From an uncultured Bacilli bacterium (GTDB lineage Bacteria; Bacillota_I; Bacilli_A; RF39; UBA660): a DNA stretch of 64,000 nucleotides. The stretch is from NCBI GenBank assembly GCA_934086815.1, contig CAKOIM010000001.1, positions 14,366 through 78,365 on the forward strand. The letters are read 5' to 3'. Positions 23,727 to 32,524 of this stretch are shown here, one piece after another; within the stretch, counting starts at the first letter, position 1, and the number at the start of each line of letters is the position of its first letter. A model generated the notes under the pieces. That model searched no databases. It saw nothing but the letters and a program-made list of their open reading frames with translations, and was not told the DNA's origin. The translations under genes were made by a program, and so were the position numbers.

Positions 23727-23784
23727 GATTTTAATTGTTTGTGATTTAAAAGTATGCTACAATAAAAAAGAATAGAGGTTGCAA

Positions 23785-25311
23785 ATGAAAAATAAAAAAA
23801 CTTATTTAATTATAATTGTAATTTTACTTGCCTTAGTTGTCGTTGGAGTTACTTTTGCATTTTTTCAAGCTCAAGGGGATAAAAATGCAAGTGCTAATGT
23901 AAATGTTAAAACTGAAGATATGGACTCTTTAGTATTTTCTGTTGGAGATAAAATAAATGTATCAGCTAACCAATTTGATTTCGGTAGTAAAGCAGGAAAT
24001 AAAGTTGGTTCAACTTATGCAAAAGCTACATTAAAAACAAGCAAAAGTGCGACGGCTAATTATTATGTTTATTTAAATATAGAAACTAATGATTTTGAGT
24101 ATACAACAGATAATAAAACTGCGGAATTAATATTAACTGTAACAGATCCATCTGGTAATGAATTAACAGAGATAAATGGTCTAAATTATGTTACTGTAAA
24201 TGATATAAAGGGGTTTGATGTAACAGAAGCAAGTGGATTAATAAAACTTGTGAATAATCGTGAAATAACTTCGACCGGTATAAAAGAAGAAACTTGGAAT
24301 GTTACATTAACTTTCATAAATTTAGATAGTGATCAAGCTAAAAATGCTAAAAAAACTTTTAAAGCTACTTTAGATATTACAAAAGAAGTAAAAAGAGAAA
24401 GTGTTGCAACTTTATGTAAAAATAGAACTTTAAGTGACTGTGTTATCGCTTTATATGAACAAGGAGATAATAATATTTATTATCATAATAGCGCCTTAAA
24501 TAATGGGGCAGGTGATAATTCTTATAGATTTTCTGGTTCAAGTGACACCACAAATAACTTTGTATGTTTCGGATATGATTCAACGGATGGTACATGTCCA
24601 ACAGATAATTTGTATAGAATAATTGGTGTATTTGATGGAGAAGTAAAACTTATAAAGTATGATTATGCTAAATCAACATTGCTCGGAACAGATGGGGATT
24701 ATGGACAAACATATCAAGCAGCTGGATATGGCGGAACTAATGAAGGTCAAAATTCTACATCTGAAATTGGGGGATATTATTGGAATAGAAATGGTACAAA
24801 TACATGGAGTGAAAGCCAACTAAATACGGTTAATTTAAATAAGAATTATATAAATAATATCGGAACAAAATGGTCAGAAAAAATATCAGACCATATATGG
24901 AAAGTTGGAGGAAACACTTGGGATAATATATATAACCAAACAGCTCCAACTGCATATCAAAATGAAATAAATAATTCAGACCCAAATAAAACTGTAAATG
25001 CAAAAGTAGGATTAATGTATGTTAGTGACTATGGATATGCAGCATCATCTAGTTCATGGTCTACATTATTAAAAAGTTATAATAATGTTATAACAAATAA
25101 TTGGATGTATATGGGACTTATTGAATGGACATTGGTGCCACGGACGGACTATTCGAATCGTGCTTTCGGTGTGGATCCCACAGGCTACTTGAATAGCTAT
25201 ATTGTTCGTTCTTACACGGTCGGCGTGCGCCCAGTTTTTTACTTAACAACTGATACATCATATAAAACTGGAAATGGGACAATTTCTTCACCAATAATTA
25301 TAAATCTTTAA
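23785..25311 (+). CDS. secreted protein, paralog 1: SipW-type-like signal/TasA-like N-terminal region plus the shared C-terminal lectin-like domain with a hypervariable block
   Basis: AGAGG lies 7 nt before ATG 23785. The N-terminus reads KKTYLIIIVILLALVVVGVTFAFFQAQGD. The C-terminal 280 aa or so are roughly 85-90% identical to 30900..32117, except for the block at 25126-25245. Confidence 0.7.
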   Translation: MKNKKTYLIIIVILLALVVVGVTFAFFQAQGDKNASANVNVKTEDMDSLVFSVGDKINVSANQFDFGSKAGNKVGSTYAKATLKTSKSATANYYVYLNIETNDFEYTTDNKTAELILTVTDPSGNELTEINGLNYVTVNDIKGFDVTEASGLIKLVNNREITSTGIKEETWNVTLTFINLDSDQAKNAKKTFKATLDITKEVKRESVATLCKNRTLSDCVIALYEQGDNNIYYHNSALNNGAGDNSYRFSGSSDTTNNFVCFGYDSTDGTCPTDNLYRIIGVFDGEVKLIKYDYAKSTLLGTDGDYGQTYQAAGYGGTNEGQNSTSEIGGYYWNRNGTNTWSESQLNTVNLNKNYINNIGTKWSEKISDHIWKVGGNTWDNIYNQTAPTAYQNEINNSDPNKTVNAKVGLMYVSDYGYAASSSSWSTLLKSYNNVITNNWMYMGLIEWTLVPRTDYSNRAFGVDPTGYLNSYIVRSYTVGVRPVFYLTTDTSYKTGNGTISSPIIINL

Positions 25312-30784: not shown

Positions 30785-30794
30785 TTTTATAGTA

Positions 30795-30880
30795 GAGGCT
30801 TCGGGATAAGAGGCTTCGGGATAAGAGGCTTCGGGATAAGAGGCTTCGGGATAAGAGGCTTCGGGATAAGAGGCTTCGGA
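30795..30880 (+). repeat. perfect tandem repeat: 15-nt unit gaggcttcgggataa x5, plus an 11-nt partial sixth copy
   Basis: Exact copies start at 30795, 30810, 30825, 30840 and 30855; the partial copy spans 30870-30880. The array lies between the predicted promoter and ATG 30900. Confidence 0.95.
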
Positions 30881-30899
30881 AAGGGAAAGTCTTTTTGTT

Positions 30900-32117
30900 A
30901 TGAGAAAATTTATTGTGATAGTAGTTGTGGCTTTGGTAGTGTTATCCGGGTCAGGATTTTATGTTTATAAGATAAATGGTATGAGTACAACATATGAAAA
31001 TAAAGAAATTAAAAATAATAGTAATATGTTAAGTATGATGTTAGAAACTGAAGCTGGATCAGGAAAATATCAAGAAACTACGACAAGTTCATGGCCAACG
31101 GAAGGATATACATTTAATGAAAACTTATCTAAATGTGAAAAAGGGAGTAGTTTAAGTTGGGATAGTACTAAGAATACTGTAGTCATGATGGGAAATAATT
31201 CTGATAAGTGTTATGTTTATTTTGATTTAATACCGCCAGTATATTTAGCTGATCATATTAAAAGTTTATATACATCTCAAGGTGCGAATAATTTGTATTT
31301 ACATGATAATAGTCTAACAAATGGAGCTAAAGATAACTCATATCGTTATGCAGGTCCAAGTGACACCACAAATAACTTTGTATGTTTTGGATATGACTCA
31401 ACTGATGGAACATGCCCAACAGATAATTTATATAGAATCATCGGAGTATTTGATGGTGAAGTAAAACTAATAAAGTATGATTATGCAAAATCAACATTAT
31501 TAGGAACAGATGGGAATTATTATGGTGCTTATTCTTATAGCGGAACAAATAAAGGCCAAAATTCCAAAACAGAAATAGGTGTATATTATTGGAATAAAAA
31601 TACAAGTAATAATACGTGGAGTGAAAGTCAATTAAATACAGTAAATTTAAATACAAATTATTTAAAAAATATTGGCGATGAATGGTCAAAAAAAATATCA
31701 GACCATACATGGAAAGTTGGGGGAAATACTTGGAGTAATATAGCTAAACAAACAGCTCCAACAGCATATCAAAATGAAATAAATAGTCCAGCAACAAATA
31801 AAACGGTAAATGCAAAAGTAGGATTAATGTATGTAAGTGACTATGGATATGCAGCATCATCTAGTTCTTGGTCTACAACGCTTCAAAATTACAAGAATGT
31901 TATAGCAAATAATTGGATGTATATGGGTCTTTATGATTGGACATTGGCGCCTTCGACGGACGTTTCGGACCGTGCTTTCTGTGTGCACTTTGGCGGTATT
32001 GTCGGCTACTACATTGTCAACTCTAGCAGTGCGGTGCGCCCAGTCCTTTATCTGAAGTCAACAATAGGCTATGGCGGTGGAAGCGGCACGGCCGCGAAAC
32101 CGATTTTGGTGAAATAG
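30900..32117 (+). CDS. membrane-anchored/secreted protein, paralog 2: N-terminal TM and Cys-containing module plus the shared C-terminal lectin-like domain with a hypervariable block
   Basis: The N-terminus reads MRKFIVIVVVALVVLSGSG. The shared domain runs from about NNLYLHDNSLTNGAKDNSYRY to the end. The 3' end (31938 onward) is sharply GC-rich and A-poor. Confidence 0.7.
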   Translation: MRKFIVIVVVALVVLSGSGFYVYKINGMSTTYENKEIKNNSNMLSMMLETEAGSGKYQETTTSSWPTEGYTFNENLSKCEKGSSLSWDSTKNTVVMMGNNSDKCYVYFDLIPPVYLADHIKSLYTSQGANNLYLHDNSLTNGAKDNSYRYAGPSDTTNNFVCFGYDSTDGTCPTDNLYRIIGVFDGEVKLIKYDYAKSTLLGTDGNYYGAYSYSGTNKGQNSKTEIGVYYWNKNTSNNTWSESQLNTVNLNTNYLKNIGDEWSKKISDHTWKVGGNTWSNIAKQTAPTAYQNEINSPATNKTVNAKVGLMYVSDYGYAASSSSWSTTLQNYKNVIANNWMYMGLYDWTLAPSTDVSDRAFCVHFGGIVGYYIVNSSSAVRPVLYLKSTIGYGGGSGTAAKPILVK

Positions 32118-32342
32118 TGACGGAGTAAGGCGAAATCTTCGCACCCTTGATGGGACATGGTGAGCCACGAAAAAAATAAGCGAAGCGAAAAAGATTTAGA
32201 GGTTCGAAAAACTATTGCTTTATCTGGAGCAGGCTGTAAGCGTGTGCCAGTGGCATTTTTGAAAAAATATAGAACGCGGTGAAAAGAAGCAAGACACTAA
32301 AAGCGCGCTATGTATATGAAGCCCTGTATGGGCAGGGCTTCC

Positions 32343-32365
32343 AAAATTAGGCGAAGCCTAATTTT
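32343..32365 (+). other. 10-bp hairpin at the end of the GC-rich island (aaaattaggc-gaa-gcctaatttt)
   Basis: Perfect inverted repeat with a 3-nt loop. It may act as a terminator in either direction. Confidence 0.4.
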
Positions 32366-32404
32366 GTTGATAAAAATAAAATATGCTATAAATGTTATTA
32401 TAAA

Positions 32405-32455
32405 AACTGATAGAAATGTCAATGTTAAAAGGTGATAATTTTCTGTCAGTTTTTT
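32405..32455 (+). terminator. intrinsic terminator downstream of paralog 2 and the GC-rich island
   Basis: 12-bp stem aactgatagaaa/tttctgtcagtt (one G-U pair) with a 23-nt loop, then T6. Confidence 0.6.
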
Positions 32456-32496
32456 GTATTTTTGATATACTTATATTATCTCAGTGAATAAGTAAA

Positions 32497-32524
32497 TAAA
32501 AAAAGAATTATATTTCTATAATTC
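32497..32524 (-). terminator. intrinsic terminator for 32549..33088 (minus strand)
   Basis: Stem gaattata/tataattc with loop tttc. An A-run on the + strand gives a T-run on the - strand. Confidence 0.45.

What the first reader, a model, noticed from the sequence alone, without database searches (positions are those of the whole stretch)
32118..32366. GC-rich, ORF-free, hairpin-rich island of about 250 nt directly downstream of paralog 2: a decayed DGR template/accessory region, or an unrecognised structured RNA
**Seen in the sequence.** After the TAG at 32115-32117 the sequence stays GC-rich. By hand count it is about 44% GC over 32121-32340, well above the rest of the window. It has no ORF of 60 aa or more on either strand; the best is a 41-codon ATG frame at 32156-32281. 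Several stable hairpins are present: gcgaa-atc-ttcgc (32130-32142), gaagccctg-tatggg-cagggcttc (32318-32341, a 9-bp GC-rich stem) and aaaattaggc-gaa-gcctaatttt (32343-32365). A gcgaag motif recurs three times. A strong intrinsic terminator follows at 32405-32455, so the island is probably transcribed with the upstream gene or as its own RNA. Its first 37 nt (tgggacatggtgagccacgaaaaaaataagcgaagcg, 32151-32187) align, with gaps, to the start of the hypervariable block of paralog 1 (tggacattggtgccacggacggactattcgaatcg), and most mismatches place an A in the island. A later stretch, gcgtgtgccagt (32240-32251), resembles gcgtgcgcccagt at the end of the block. The spacing between these two anchors (about 100 nt) is close to the block length. 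**Caveat.** The central part does not align, indels are needed, and any A-rich sequence will show A-type mismatches by chance. I therefore do not call it a functional template repeat.
Basis: partly seen in the sequence, partly recalled or inferred. Interest (0 to 1): 0.6.

Follow-up and report, generated by a model that had tools for sequence, protein, structure and literature searches.

The report
Repeated 3' flank of hypermutated genes
The GC-rich patch is not a decayed template but one of eight copies of the non-coding tail behind genes rewritten by a mutagenic retroelement: a worn copy of a two-hairpin element conserved across the genus, plus a terminator.

Summary
Window 32118-32366 is 44% G+C against 26% for the window, it has no conserved ORF, and the hairpins lie at the stated coordinates.

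The suggested likeness to a template repeat (TR) does not hold. Alignment to both variable blocks and to the real TR is no better than shuffled controls. A profile of the genus TR/spacer region finds nothing in any island copy. The real TR, with MutS-like, Avd-like and RT genes, lies on another contig (C19).

The island is a repeat. Eight copies in this genome each follow the stop codon of a gene with a DGR variable region, and three more lie on metagenome contigs.

It has two parts:
- **Part A (32118-32257)** is homologous to the spacer between target stop and TR in the master cassette. It descends from a two-hairpin module (HP1, HP2) that I found in 43 of 55 genomes of the genus. Both hairpins are more stable on the sense strand; compensatory changes were measured for HP1. 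50 of 54 testable HP1 copies sit just after such a target gene. HP1 is not in Rfam. In the window's copy HP1 is broken and HP2 is weakened.
- **Part B (32258-32375)** was found only in this genome and ends in a twin hairpin that looks like a terminator.

The scan has already noted other copies of this patch in this genome.

The parts
30900..32117 (+). Paralog 2, a 405-aa surface-protein gene and remote DGR target. Its last ~840 nt (from about 31279) are shared at 75-95% identity with seven other genes whose N-terminal parts do not align.
   Evidence: ORF list; weak DUF6273 match; sliding identity among the 8 paralogs.
31938..32046 (+). Variable region: A-poor, 58% G+C, the most divergent block among the paralogs (64% mean identity).
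   Evidence: Alignment to the TR and to the other VRs; identity and G+C by segment.
32047..32117 (+). Coding tail after the VR. It holds an IMH-like sequence (ccagtcctttatctgaag begins at 32040) and a short G+C hairpin, GCGGC-ACG-GCCGC, at 32083-32095. It is 90-96% identical among the 8 copies and 98.6% identical to the master target's tail.
   Evidence: The same hairpin, with varying loops, occurs in relatives' tails.
32118..32205 (+). Part A1, the remnant of hairpin HP1. The 5' arm TCTTCGCACC (32136-32145) is kept. The 3' arm has changed from CGGGGCGAGG (master copy) to ATGGGACATGG. A small substitute hairpin, GCGAA-ATC-TTCGC (32130-32142), uses the old 5' arm.
   Evidence: Alignment of copies. 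The HP1 covariance model scores 2.1 bits (E = 2.9) here against 37.9 bits for the master copy. Fold z = +0.42.
32206..32257 (+). Part A2, holding hairpin HP2 at 32224-32250 (CTGGAGCAGGC-TGTAA-GCGTGTGCCAG). A2 is deleted in 3 of the 8 genome copies, between short direct repeats (yGAAAAAyTA).
   Evidence: HP2 here folds at -12.1 kcal/mol, z = -3.07. Homologous hairpins occur in relatives.
32258..32375 (+). Part B, found only in this genome's lineage among those searched. It has a weak stem (AACGCG..CGCGCT), a 9-10-bp G+C hairpin at 32318-32341, a terminator-like hairpin with a T-run at 32343-32369, and GTTGATAA. Homology among the copies ends here.
   Evidence: Fold z = -6.5. Present in 6 of 8 copies and absent from the master C19 and C18 copies. 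No match in relatives. Identity drops from 0.90 to 0.50 after 32375.

Best explanation
The island is the non-coding 3' flank, most likely the 3' untranslated region plus terminator, of a remote target gene of a diversity-generating retroelement (DGR). It is one of eight copies of a roughly 1.1-kb module. The module consists of the C-terminal lectin-like domain, the variable region, an IMH-like tail and this flank, and it has spread among surface-protein genes of this genome.

Part A is a copy of the leader that, in the master cassette on contig C19, lies between the target's stop codon and the template repeat. It descends from a genus-wide pair of sense-strand hairpins, HP1 and HP2, that follow the stop codon of such target genes. 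In this lineage HP1 has lost its 3' arm and HP2 is weakened or deleted in some copies, so part A is mostly a relic. Part B is a newer addition, and its twin hairpin with a T-run ends the transcript.

The copies stay about 90% alike through recent duplication and exchange between copies.

**Shown:** the copy number, the homology to the master leader, the absence of any template-repeat remnant, the conservation and covariation of HP1, the conservation of HP2 as a hairpin across the genus, the sense-strand bias of both, and their link to target genes.

**Inferred:** transcription as a 3' UTR, termination at part B, and whatever HP1/HP2 do for the retroelement or the mRNA.
For: **Copies and homology to the master leader**
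- blastn finds copies at 87-93% identity behind VR-like blocks on C1 (two), C2, C4, C8, C13, C18 and C19.
- The C19 locus reads: 868-aa target, VR, tail, island part A, TR (AAC-rich, differing from its VR at adenines), MutS_I-like ORF, bAvd-like ORF, RT.
- Three more copies lie on metagenome contigs, including a master-locus variant.

**No TR remnant:**

**Module boundaries and identities**
- Codon position 3: 0.80. Coding tail: 0.90-0.96 by codon position. A1: 0.92. A2: 0.92. B: 0.90. Downstream: 0.50.

**Genus-wide hairpins**
- RT homologues occur in 47 of 55 other genomes of the genus, and the spacers of about 25 master loci show HP1 and HP2.
- HP1: 92.8% of cells paired and 7 of 14 pairs with changes on both sides; 0 of 500 shuffles reach this, and slid controls pair at 36-54%.
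- On 61 distinct sequences: 90.7% paired and 8 of 14 pairs with two-sided changes.
- The HP1 model hits 43 of 55 other genus genomes and 0 of 149 genomes of other genera in the class.
- 50 of 54 hits with enough upstream sequence lie 8-64 nt after a homologue of this gene's C-terminus.
- The sense strand is more stable than the antisense strand: HP1 -19.0 against -14.8 kcal/mol (54 of 60), HP2 -19.2 against -13.6 kcal/mol (26 of 26).

**State of the window's copy**
- HP1 scores 2.1 bits, and part A folds at z = +0.21, against -6.5 for part B.

**Exchange between copies**
- C1b and C2a share the same A2 deletion junction, and their A1 is 98.8% identical, while their codon position 3 is 76% identical.
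- The orthologous C2a locus in other strains (L023, L024) keeps A2. L024's island is closest to C1b, not to C2a.
Against: - The 3' UTR and terminator roles are therefore inferred.
- The simple terminator scan did not call the 32343-32369 hairpin.
- The flank is more alike among paralogs (0.90-0.92) than codon position 3 (0.80). That could reflect purifying selection rather than exchange between copies.
- G+C of 41-46% in a 26% G+C genome would decay if the sequence were truly neutral. This argues for some retained function of part A, or for very recent spread.
- The broken HP1 form is shared by every remote copy and by another strain's master locus (L022). It may be a working variant rather than decay.
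Confidence: 0.6

Rival explanations
1. The island is an active target-side recognition element of the DGR. Its hairpins form on the sense strand of the DNA, or on the mRNA, just 3' of the variable region and help the retroelement find or prime at this gene end. It would be an enlarged version of the hairpin/cruciform needed downstream of VR in Bordetella phage BPP-1.
For: - All 8 copies with the intact IMH-like tail carry the island, while VR-like paralogs with diverged tails lack it (C21, C32, C18b, paralog 1, C1c, C2b).
- Across the genus, HP1 sits right after target stop codons in 50 of 54 cases and was not found in other genera searched.
- Sequence as well as structure is conserved across cassettes whose RTs are only 45-65% identical.
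- Sense-strand bias fits the strand-specific loop requirement reported for BPP-1 (PMC3240598).
- The flank is more conserved than codon position 3.
Against: - HP1 is broken in this copy and in every remote copy, and HP2 is deleted in 3 of the 8.
- In relative G004, a remote VR (L012) that appears, by my reading of the sequences, to differ from that genome's TR only at adenines has no HP1 or HP2 behind it, only a plain terminator.
- HP1 lies about 95 nt from the VR end. Stems are 11-15 bp with 3-6-nt loops that do not fit GRNA. BPP-1-type hairpins lie 4-34 bp away, with 7-10-bp stems and 4-nt GRNA loops.
- A nearer, shorter hairpin in the coding tail (32083-32095) is the better positional analogue.
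Confidence: 0.25
2. The island is a decayed template repeat with its downstream spacer, left from a duplicated DGR cassette.
For: - In relatives, many target genes are followed by HP1, HP2, then a full, truncated or decayed TR and spacer. Duplicated cassettes that lose their TR do therefore exist in the genus.
- Short shared words: GTGTGAGATA in part B and in the C19 spacer, and AGCCCTGTATGG against AGCCCTTTATGG at the TR end.
Against: - Alignments are no better than shuffles: z from -0.9 to 2.0, and consensus part B against the C19 spacer z = 1.07.
- The two short words lie in opposite order in part B and in the master, so they cannot both be collinear homology.
- The profile search finds nothing in any island copy.
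- The pre-TR motif GGGTAATCTT is absent from the island.
Confidence: 0.04
3. The island encodes an independent small RNA, or is the end of a mobile or recombining gene cassette, with hairpins acting as recombination sites.
For: - Sharp module boundaries and unrelated N-terminal gene parts.
- At the orthologous C2a locus, two strains differ by about 20% in the coding part but by a few percent in the island and the next gene.
- A recurring TTATCAACA motif sits at the module's end in relatives, and its reverse complement at the end of part B.
- HP2 has conserved ends and a variable but complementary interior.
Against: - No promoter-like site inside the island.
- No recombinase gene nearby.
- No copy of the island away from a target gene in this genome.
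- The motif evidence is post hoc.
Confidence: 0.08

Closest known systems
Hairpin/cruciform downstream of VR in DGR targets (Bordetella phage BPP-1 and other phage DGRs; Guo et al. 2011, PMC3240598)
   Same: G+C-rich inverted repeats lie 3' of a DGR variable region, structure is conserved more than sequence, and there is evidence for strand-specific action.
   Different: Here there are two long hairpins (11-15 bp) starting about 95 nt from the VR end, after the stop codon. Loops are 3-6 nt and do not fit GRNA. HP1 carries conserved G.U wobbles. The element is also found at orphan loci. In this window HP1 is broken. Its requirement for homing is untested.
Non-coding RNA parts of DGR cassettes (spacer between TR and RT; Rfam RT-10 motif; about 300 nt upstream of TR needed for retrohoming in BPP-1, PMC6182149, PMC5737381)
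   Same: In the master cassette the island's part A lies in the 150-300 nt just upstream of the TR. In BPP-1 that is the region needed for retrohoming but not for cDNA synthesis.
   Different: The element also follows remote targets that have no TR nearby. No Rfam family matches it. In BPP-1 the upstream region is avd coding sequence.
Remote (non-adjacent) DGR target genes, such as those of Treponema denticola (Wu et al. 2018, PMC5758913)
   Same: Several target genes are scattered around the genome and served in trans by one RT/TR cassette.
   Different: Here at least seven remote targets share not only the VR and IMH but also a roughly 250-nt non-coding flank. Their VRs show non-adenine differences from the present TR, and the TR itself differs between strains.
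Rho-independent terminator
   Same: Part B ends with a hairpin (TTAGGC-GAA-GCCTAA, flanked by an A-run and a T-run) followed by TTTTGTTG.
   Different: It is preceded by a second perfect 9-10-bp hairpin. The tool's scan did not call it. HP1 and HP2 in relatives mostly lack a T-run.

Membership tests
DGR template repeat (TR) | A repeat of the VR, about 100-130 nt long, that differs from it almost only at TR adenines | tested here: not met
   Local alignments against both VR blocks and against the true TR give z = -0.8 to 2.0. The nhmmer profile finds no hit in any island copy.
DGR template repeat (TR) | Lies beside the RT and accessory genes, followed by the conserved spacer RNA | tested here: not met
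   There is no RT in the window. The RT, Avd-like and MutS-like genes and the TR lie on C19 and C5. The spacer motif AAGGACAAAG and the pre-TR motif GGGTAATCTT are absent from the island.
DGR target hairpin/cruciform (BPP-1 type) | G+C-rich stem of 7-10 bp with a 4-nt GRNA loop on the sense strand | tested here: not met
   Island hairpins have loops ATC, TGTAA, TATGGG and GAA. The 9-bp stem at 32318-32341 has a 6-nt loop.
DGR target hairpin/cruciform (BPP-1 type) | Located 4-34 bp downstream of the VR | tested here: not met
   The island starts about 70 nt after the VR end. The HP1 remnant lies about 95 nt away and the strong hairpins about 270 nt away. The tail hairpin at 32083-32095 lies about 40 nt away but has only 5 bp.
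DGR target hairpin/cruciform (BPP-1 type) | Needed for efficient retrohoming | not testable with these tools
   This needs a homing assay.
Genus-wide HP1-HP2 target-flank module (defined here) | Starts within about 10-60 nt after the stop codon of a gene with this C-terminal domain and VR | tested here: met
   The island begins at the stop codon. Across the genus, 50 of 54 HP1 copies are placed this way.
Genus-wide HP1-HP2 target-flank module (defined here) | HP1 hairpin matching covariance model R1 | tested here: not met
   2.1 bits, E = 2.9 at 32126-32169. The master copy scores 37.9 bits. Homology to that master copy is nonetheless clear by sequence: 87% over 140 nt.
Genus-wide HP1-HP2 target-flank module (defined here) | HP2 hairpin with CTGSC...GSCAG ends, downstream of HP1 (about 55 nt after the HP1 remnant in this copy) | tested here: met
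   32224-32250, CTGGA...GCCAG, 10 bp, -12.1 kcal/mol, z = -3.07.
Rho-independent terminator | Stable hairpin followed directly by a T-run at the end of a transcription unit | tested here: inconclusive
   The hairpin at 32343-32365 with TTTTGTTG is evident by eye and by folding, but the consensus scan found no site. There is no transcript data.
Any Rfam 15 family | Match at or near the gathering score | tested here: not met
   There are no matches apart from chance-level ones (E >= 1.4) in 31900-32520, and none in the master locus.

The most novel reading that the evidence does not exclude
HP1 and HP2 are a previously undescribed licensing element of this DGR lineage. They would be sense-strand hairpins, as single-stranded DNA or RNA, whose conserved G.T/G.U pairs are read by the cassette's MutS-domain-I-like accessory protein or by RT-Avd. 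That reading would mark a gene end as a retrohoming target. The eight-copy island in this genome would then be a working variant that lets one cassette serve many remote genes.
Probability: 0.12. Interest if true: 0.8.

Novelty: new variant of a known kind. Interest (0 to 1): 0.45.

Why it matters
DGR studies have defined only a short hairpin next to the variable region as the target-side signal, and about 300 nt upstream of the TR as needed for homing for unknown reasons.

This genus offers a natural data set bearing on both points:
- A conserved two-hairpin non-coding element, with covariation measured in HP1, that travels with target genes. It occurs next to the TR and also far from it.
- One genome in which that element has been copied eight times and is partly worn down.

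The data set could show whether DGRs use longer structured flanks to choose remote targets, and how target families expand.

For the window itself the practical result is simpler. The patch is explained: it is not a hidden template, not foreign DNA and not a gene.

Tried and rejected
- **TR resemblance.** Formal local alignments with shuffles and a profile search found no support.
- **Coding potential.** The 41-codon ORF is broken in the other copies.
- **Rfam.** Searches at the gathering and E-value thresholds on the window and the master locus found nothing.
- **Phage origin.** A distant blastn of the tail plus island against 50,697 phage records found no match.
- **Exact-pattern scans.** Two scans of 185,579 species genomes, for an A1 word and for the part B hairpin, found none.
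- **blastn in relatives.** Among 60 relatives only a weak tail match in G004 appeared. This first suggested a species-specific element. It was overturned when the master loci of relatives were read directly and HP1/HP2 were found through structure.
- **Part B as a decayed spacer.** The shared 10-mer GTGTGAGATA is not significant (z = 1.07) and is out of order with the other short match.
- **HP1 as a plain terminator.** Most copies have GGGG followed by an A-rich or mixed stretch, not a T-run.
- **Symmetric DNA cruciform.** This is unlikely for HP1 and HP2 because the antisense strand folds 4-6 kcal/mol worse.

Full report
**1. The observation**

The sequence after the TAG at 32115-32117 is as described.
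- G+C is 0.445 over 32121-32340 against 0.262 for the window. The only 249-nt windows above 0.42 lie in 31801-32126, over the variable region and the island.
- The three hairpins are at the stated coordinates.
- The longest ORF is 41 codons at 32157-32282.
- GCGAAG occurs twice, not three times.
- Excess folding energy is real for the whole stretch (z = -4.1) but equal on the opposite strand (z = -4.0).
- That excess comes from part B alone. Region 32258-32375 has z = -6.5, while 32118-32257 has z = +0.21.

**2. It is not a template repeat**

The genome holding the window (1.10 Mb, 37 contigs, about 26% G+C) has three RT matches.

The RT on contig C19 is part of a full diversity-generating retroelement (DGR). 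In order, the cassette holds:
- an 868-aa target gene with a variable region (VR);
- a non-coding spacer;
- an AAC-rich template repeat (TR) that differs from the adjacent VR at adenines;
- a MutS-domain-I-like ORF (Pfam E = 7e-4);
- a bAvd-like ORF (E = 3e-5);
- a 359-aa RT.

A second DGR lies on C5. Its RT frame carries an in-frame TGA.

- Region 32140-32270 against the paralog-1 block gives z = 2.0 (p = 0.06).
- The same region against the paralog-2 block gives z = -0.8.
- The island against the true TR gives z = 1.6.
- A profile HMM of 21 pre-TR/TR/spacer regions from the genus finds the C19 TR (E = 2e-62), the C5 TR (E = 8e-16) and several VRs. It finds nothing in any island copy with filters off at E <= 10.

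**3. It is a repeat tied to target genes**

blastn of the island against its own genome finds copies at 87-93% identity on C1 (this one and a second), C2, C4, C8, C13, C18 and C19. Each follows a VR-like block and a stop codon. A pattern scan of metagenome contigs found three more from the same species.

Aligned, the copies define these parts:
- **Coding tail, 32047-32117.** IMH-like sequence and a short hairpin, GCGGC-ACG-GCCGC.
- **A1, 32118-32205.**
- **A2, 32206-32257.** Missing in three copies, through deletion between short direct repeats.
- **B, 32258-32375.** Missing in the C19 and C18 copies.

In the C19 cassette, parts A1 and A2 are the first 140 nt of the spacer between the target's stop codon and the TR.

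Homology among the eight genes begins about 840 nt before the stop, near 31279. It ends sharply after 32375, and the N-terminal parts do not align.

Mean pairwise identity by segment:

| Segment | Identity |
|---|---|
| Codon position 3 | 0.80 |
| Codon positions 1 and 2 | 0.89 |
| VR | 0.64 |
| Coding tail | 0.90-0.96 |
| A1 | 0.92 |
| A2 | 0.92 |
| B | 0.90 |
| Downstream of 32375 | 0.50 |

The 41-codon ORF is not kept in the other copies.

**4. Part A descends from a genus-wide structured element**

blastn found almost nothing in 36 genomes of the genus. The RT, however, has homologues at 45-65% identity in 47 of 55 other genomes of the genus.

Reading 1.5 kb upstream of those RTs shows a common order:
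- target stop codon;
- a G+C-rich hairpin, HP1;
- a second hairpin, HP2;
- the motif GGGTAATCTTGTG;
- the TR;
- a conserved spacer containing GATAAAGGACAAAGATTATCC;
- the MutS-like, Avd-like and RT genes.

RNAfold finds both hairpins in most of these loci.

*HP1*
- On an alignment of 16 master loci, HP1 (14 pairs) has 92.8% of cells paired and 7 pairs with changes on both sides.
- None of 500 shuffles reaches these values, and slid controls pair at 36-54%.
- A covariance model built from the alignment hits 43 of 55 other genomes of the genus, with 1-5 copies each.
- The same model hits none of 149 genomes from other genera of the class.
- On 61 distinct hits, pairing is 90.7% with 8 of 14 pairs changed on both sides. 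Two wobble pairs are conserved: U.G in 53 of 61 and G.U in 42 of 61. That alignment was fitted to the model, so it leans towards the structure.

*HP2*
- HP2 has conserved ends (CTGSC...GSCAG) and an interior that varies in sequence and length but stays complementary.
- 24 distinct sequences plus the window's own have a mean z of -5.05.
- The regex used to pick them fixes the five end pairs, so only the interior is independent evidence.
- No alignment-based covariation count was made for HP2.

*Strand bias*
- HP1 folds at -19.0 kcal/mol on the sense strand against -14.8 on the antisense strand (54 of 60 sequences).
- HP2 folds at -19.2 against -13.6 kcal/mol (26 of 26 sequences).
- This points to RNA, or to the sense DNA strand, and not to a symmetric cruciform. 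The sequences are related, so the p-values overstate the case.

**5. The module goes with target genes, not with the TR**

- Of 54 HP1 hits with at least 300 nt of upstream sequence, 50 lie 8-64 nt (mostly 12-16 nt) after a homologue of this gene's C-terminus.
- By my count from that table, about 25 such loci have no TR motif within 450 nt. Others are followed by a full, truncated or decayed TR and spacer.
- Six genomes without an RT hit still have HP1; several of them are incomplete.
- A few orphan copies have no target gene upstream.
- In G004, by my reading of the sequences, one remote VR differs from that genome's TR only at adenines, and it has no HP1 or HP2 behind it. The module is therefore not strictly needed at a target.

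**6. State of the window's copy**

- The master copy on C19 keeps HP1 (TCTTCGCACC-CTTG-CGGGGCGAGG; 37.9 bits).
- All remote copies, the window's included, and another strain's master locus (L022) have the 3' arm changed to ATGGGACATGG. They fail the model: 2.1 bits, E = 2.9 at 32126-32169 with filters off.
- HP2 is present at 32224-32250 with one arm mismatch (-12.1 kcal/mol, z = -3.07).
- Part B has no counterpart in the relatives searched.
- The twin hairpin of part B is very stable. Its second hairpin, with flanking A- and T-runs, has the form of an intrinsic terminator, although the consensus scan did not call it.

**7. How the copies stay alike**

- C1b and C2a share the same A2 deletion junction, and their A1 is 98.8% identical. 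Their codon position 3 is only 76% identical.
- At the orthologous C2a locus in two other samples, A2 is intact. There the coding part differs by about 20%, while the island and the next gene differ by only a few percent.
- The island of L024 is closest to C1b (0.961), not to its orthologue C2a (0.916).
- These patterns fit exchange between copies. They do not exclude selection.

**8. Reading**

The best-supported account is as follows.
- The island is the 3' flank of a remote DGR target gene, probably transcribed as its 3' UTR.
- Part A is a worn copy of the HP1-HP2 leader.
- Part B supplies the terminator.

What HP1 and HP2 do where they are intact is open.
- *For a DGR-specific role:* their tight link to target genes, their restriction to the genus among genomes searched, and their sequence conservation across cassettes whose RTs are only about 60% identical.
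- *For either RNA or the sense DNA strand:* the sense-strand bias fits both. The BPP-1 hairpin also acts in a strand-specific way (PMC3240598).
- *Possible parallel:* in BPP-1, about 300 nt upstream of the TR are needed for retrohoming but not for cDNA synthesis (PMC6182149). In the master cassettes here, that region is the one HP1 and HP2 occupy.
- *Against a strict requirement:* the broken HP1 in this species and the G004 target without the module.

**9. Limits**

- The genomes are metagenome bins, so the master cassette and the remote loci may come from slightly different strains.
- The VR-to-TR history was not pursued. Remote VRs show non-adenine differences from the C19 TR, and the TR differs between strains.
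- Earlier notes of this scan had already identified this VR, and two other copies of the patch, as DGR target ends.

Noticed in passing
L025-L054 and L087-L121 (relatives' DGR cassettes); G000 C19:16083-16210: The motif GGGTAATCTT just upstream of the TR is complementary to AAGATTATCC in the spacer after the TR. Two loci carry compensatory variants (GGGTAAGCTT with AAGCTTATCC; GGGTAGTCTT with AAGACTATCC), and two more carry G.U-compatible changes. This suggests a long-range helix that closes the TR into a loop in the DGR RNA.
   Followed up: partly
window 30794-30894: Six tandem copies of a 15-nt unit (AGAGGCTTCGGGATA) lie just upstream of the start codon of paralog 2, in its likely promoter or leader region.
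   Followed up: no
window 32376-32475; G000 C2:88312-88400; also L012 (G004), L079 (G010), L110 (G001): This is a second conserved non-coding element: AAACTGATAGAAATGTCAATGTTAAAAGGTGATAATTTTCTGTCAGTTTTTT, an inverted repeat around a promoter-like core. It is 97% identical at a second locus, where it precedes a gene start, and it is recognisable in three other species.
   Followed up: partly
G000 C5:44600-49500 (L003): A second DGR has the TR downstream of an RT whose frame is interrupted by one TGA. Two target genes that are 95% identical flank it, and their sequences over the TR-matching stretch are identical. Only a short hairpin follows their stop codons, with no HP1 or HP2.
   Followed up: partly
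G000 C2:40400-40425 compared with window 32318-32341: In the C2 copy the loop of the 9-bp hairpin is the reverse complement (CCCATA instead of TATGGG) with the stem unchanged. The hairpin has been inverted in place.
   Followed up: no
L022 (metagenome contig) compared with G000 C19:16083-16194: The TR differs between strains at non-adenine positions (for example ctcagacgg against ctcgtacgg, gcgcgcccag against gcgcggccag). The remote VRs of this genome, including the window's, carry non-adenine mismatches to the C19 TR. Either the TR evolves or the remote VRs were written by other TR versions.
   Followed up: partly
L067, L086, L093, L095, L099, L101, L111 and L005 (relatives): Many target genes in the genus are followed by their own truncated or decayed TR and spacer without RT genes. 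The duplicating unit there appears to be target plus leader plus TR, and orphan TRs are common.
   Followed up: partly
L065, L077, L080, L083, L084, L095, L104; window 32366-32374: The motif (G)TTATCAACA, one mismatch from the DnaA-box consensus as I recall it, recurs after HP2 and again just before the next gene's ribosome-binding site in relatives. Its reverse complement, TGTTGATAA, ends part B in this genome.
   Followed up: no
window 23779-25311 (paralog 1), block 25127-25237: Paralog 1 has a G+C-rich VR-like block, but its tail after ccagtt has diverged to AT-rich sequence. It has no island and ends with a plain terminator. It looks like a former target that is no longer served.
   Followed up: partly
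G000 C19:15544-15915: The accessory ORF keeps the GxFY motif of MutS domain I (GKFYNAF, with Asn where I recall MutS having the mismatch-contacting Glu), while HP1 keeps two G.T/G.U pairs. This may be coincidence or a lead.
   Followed up: no
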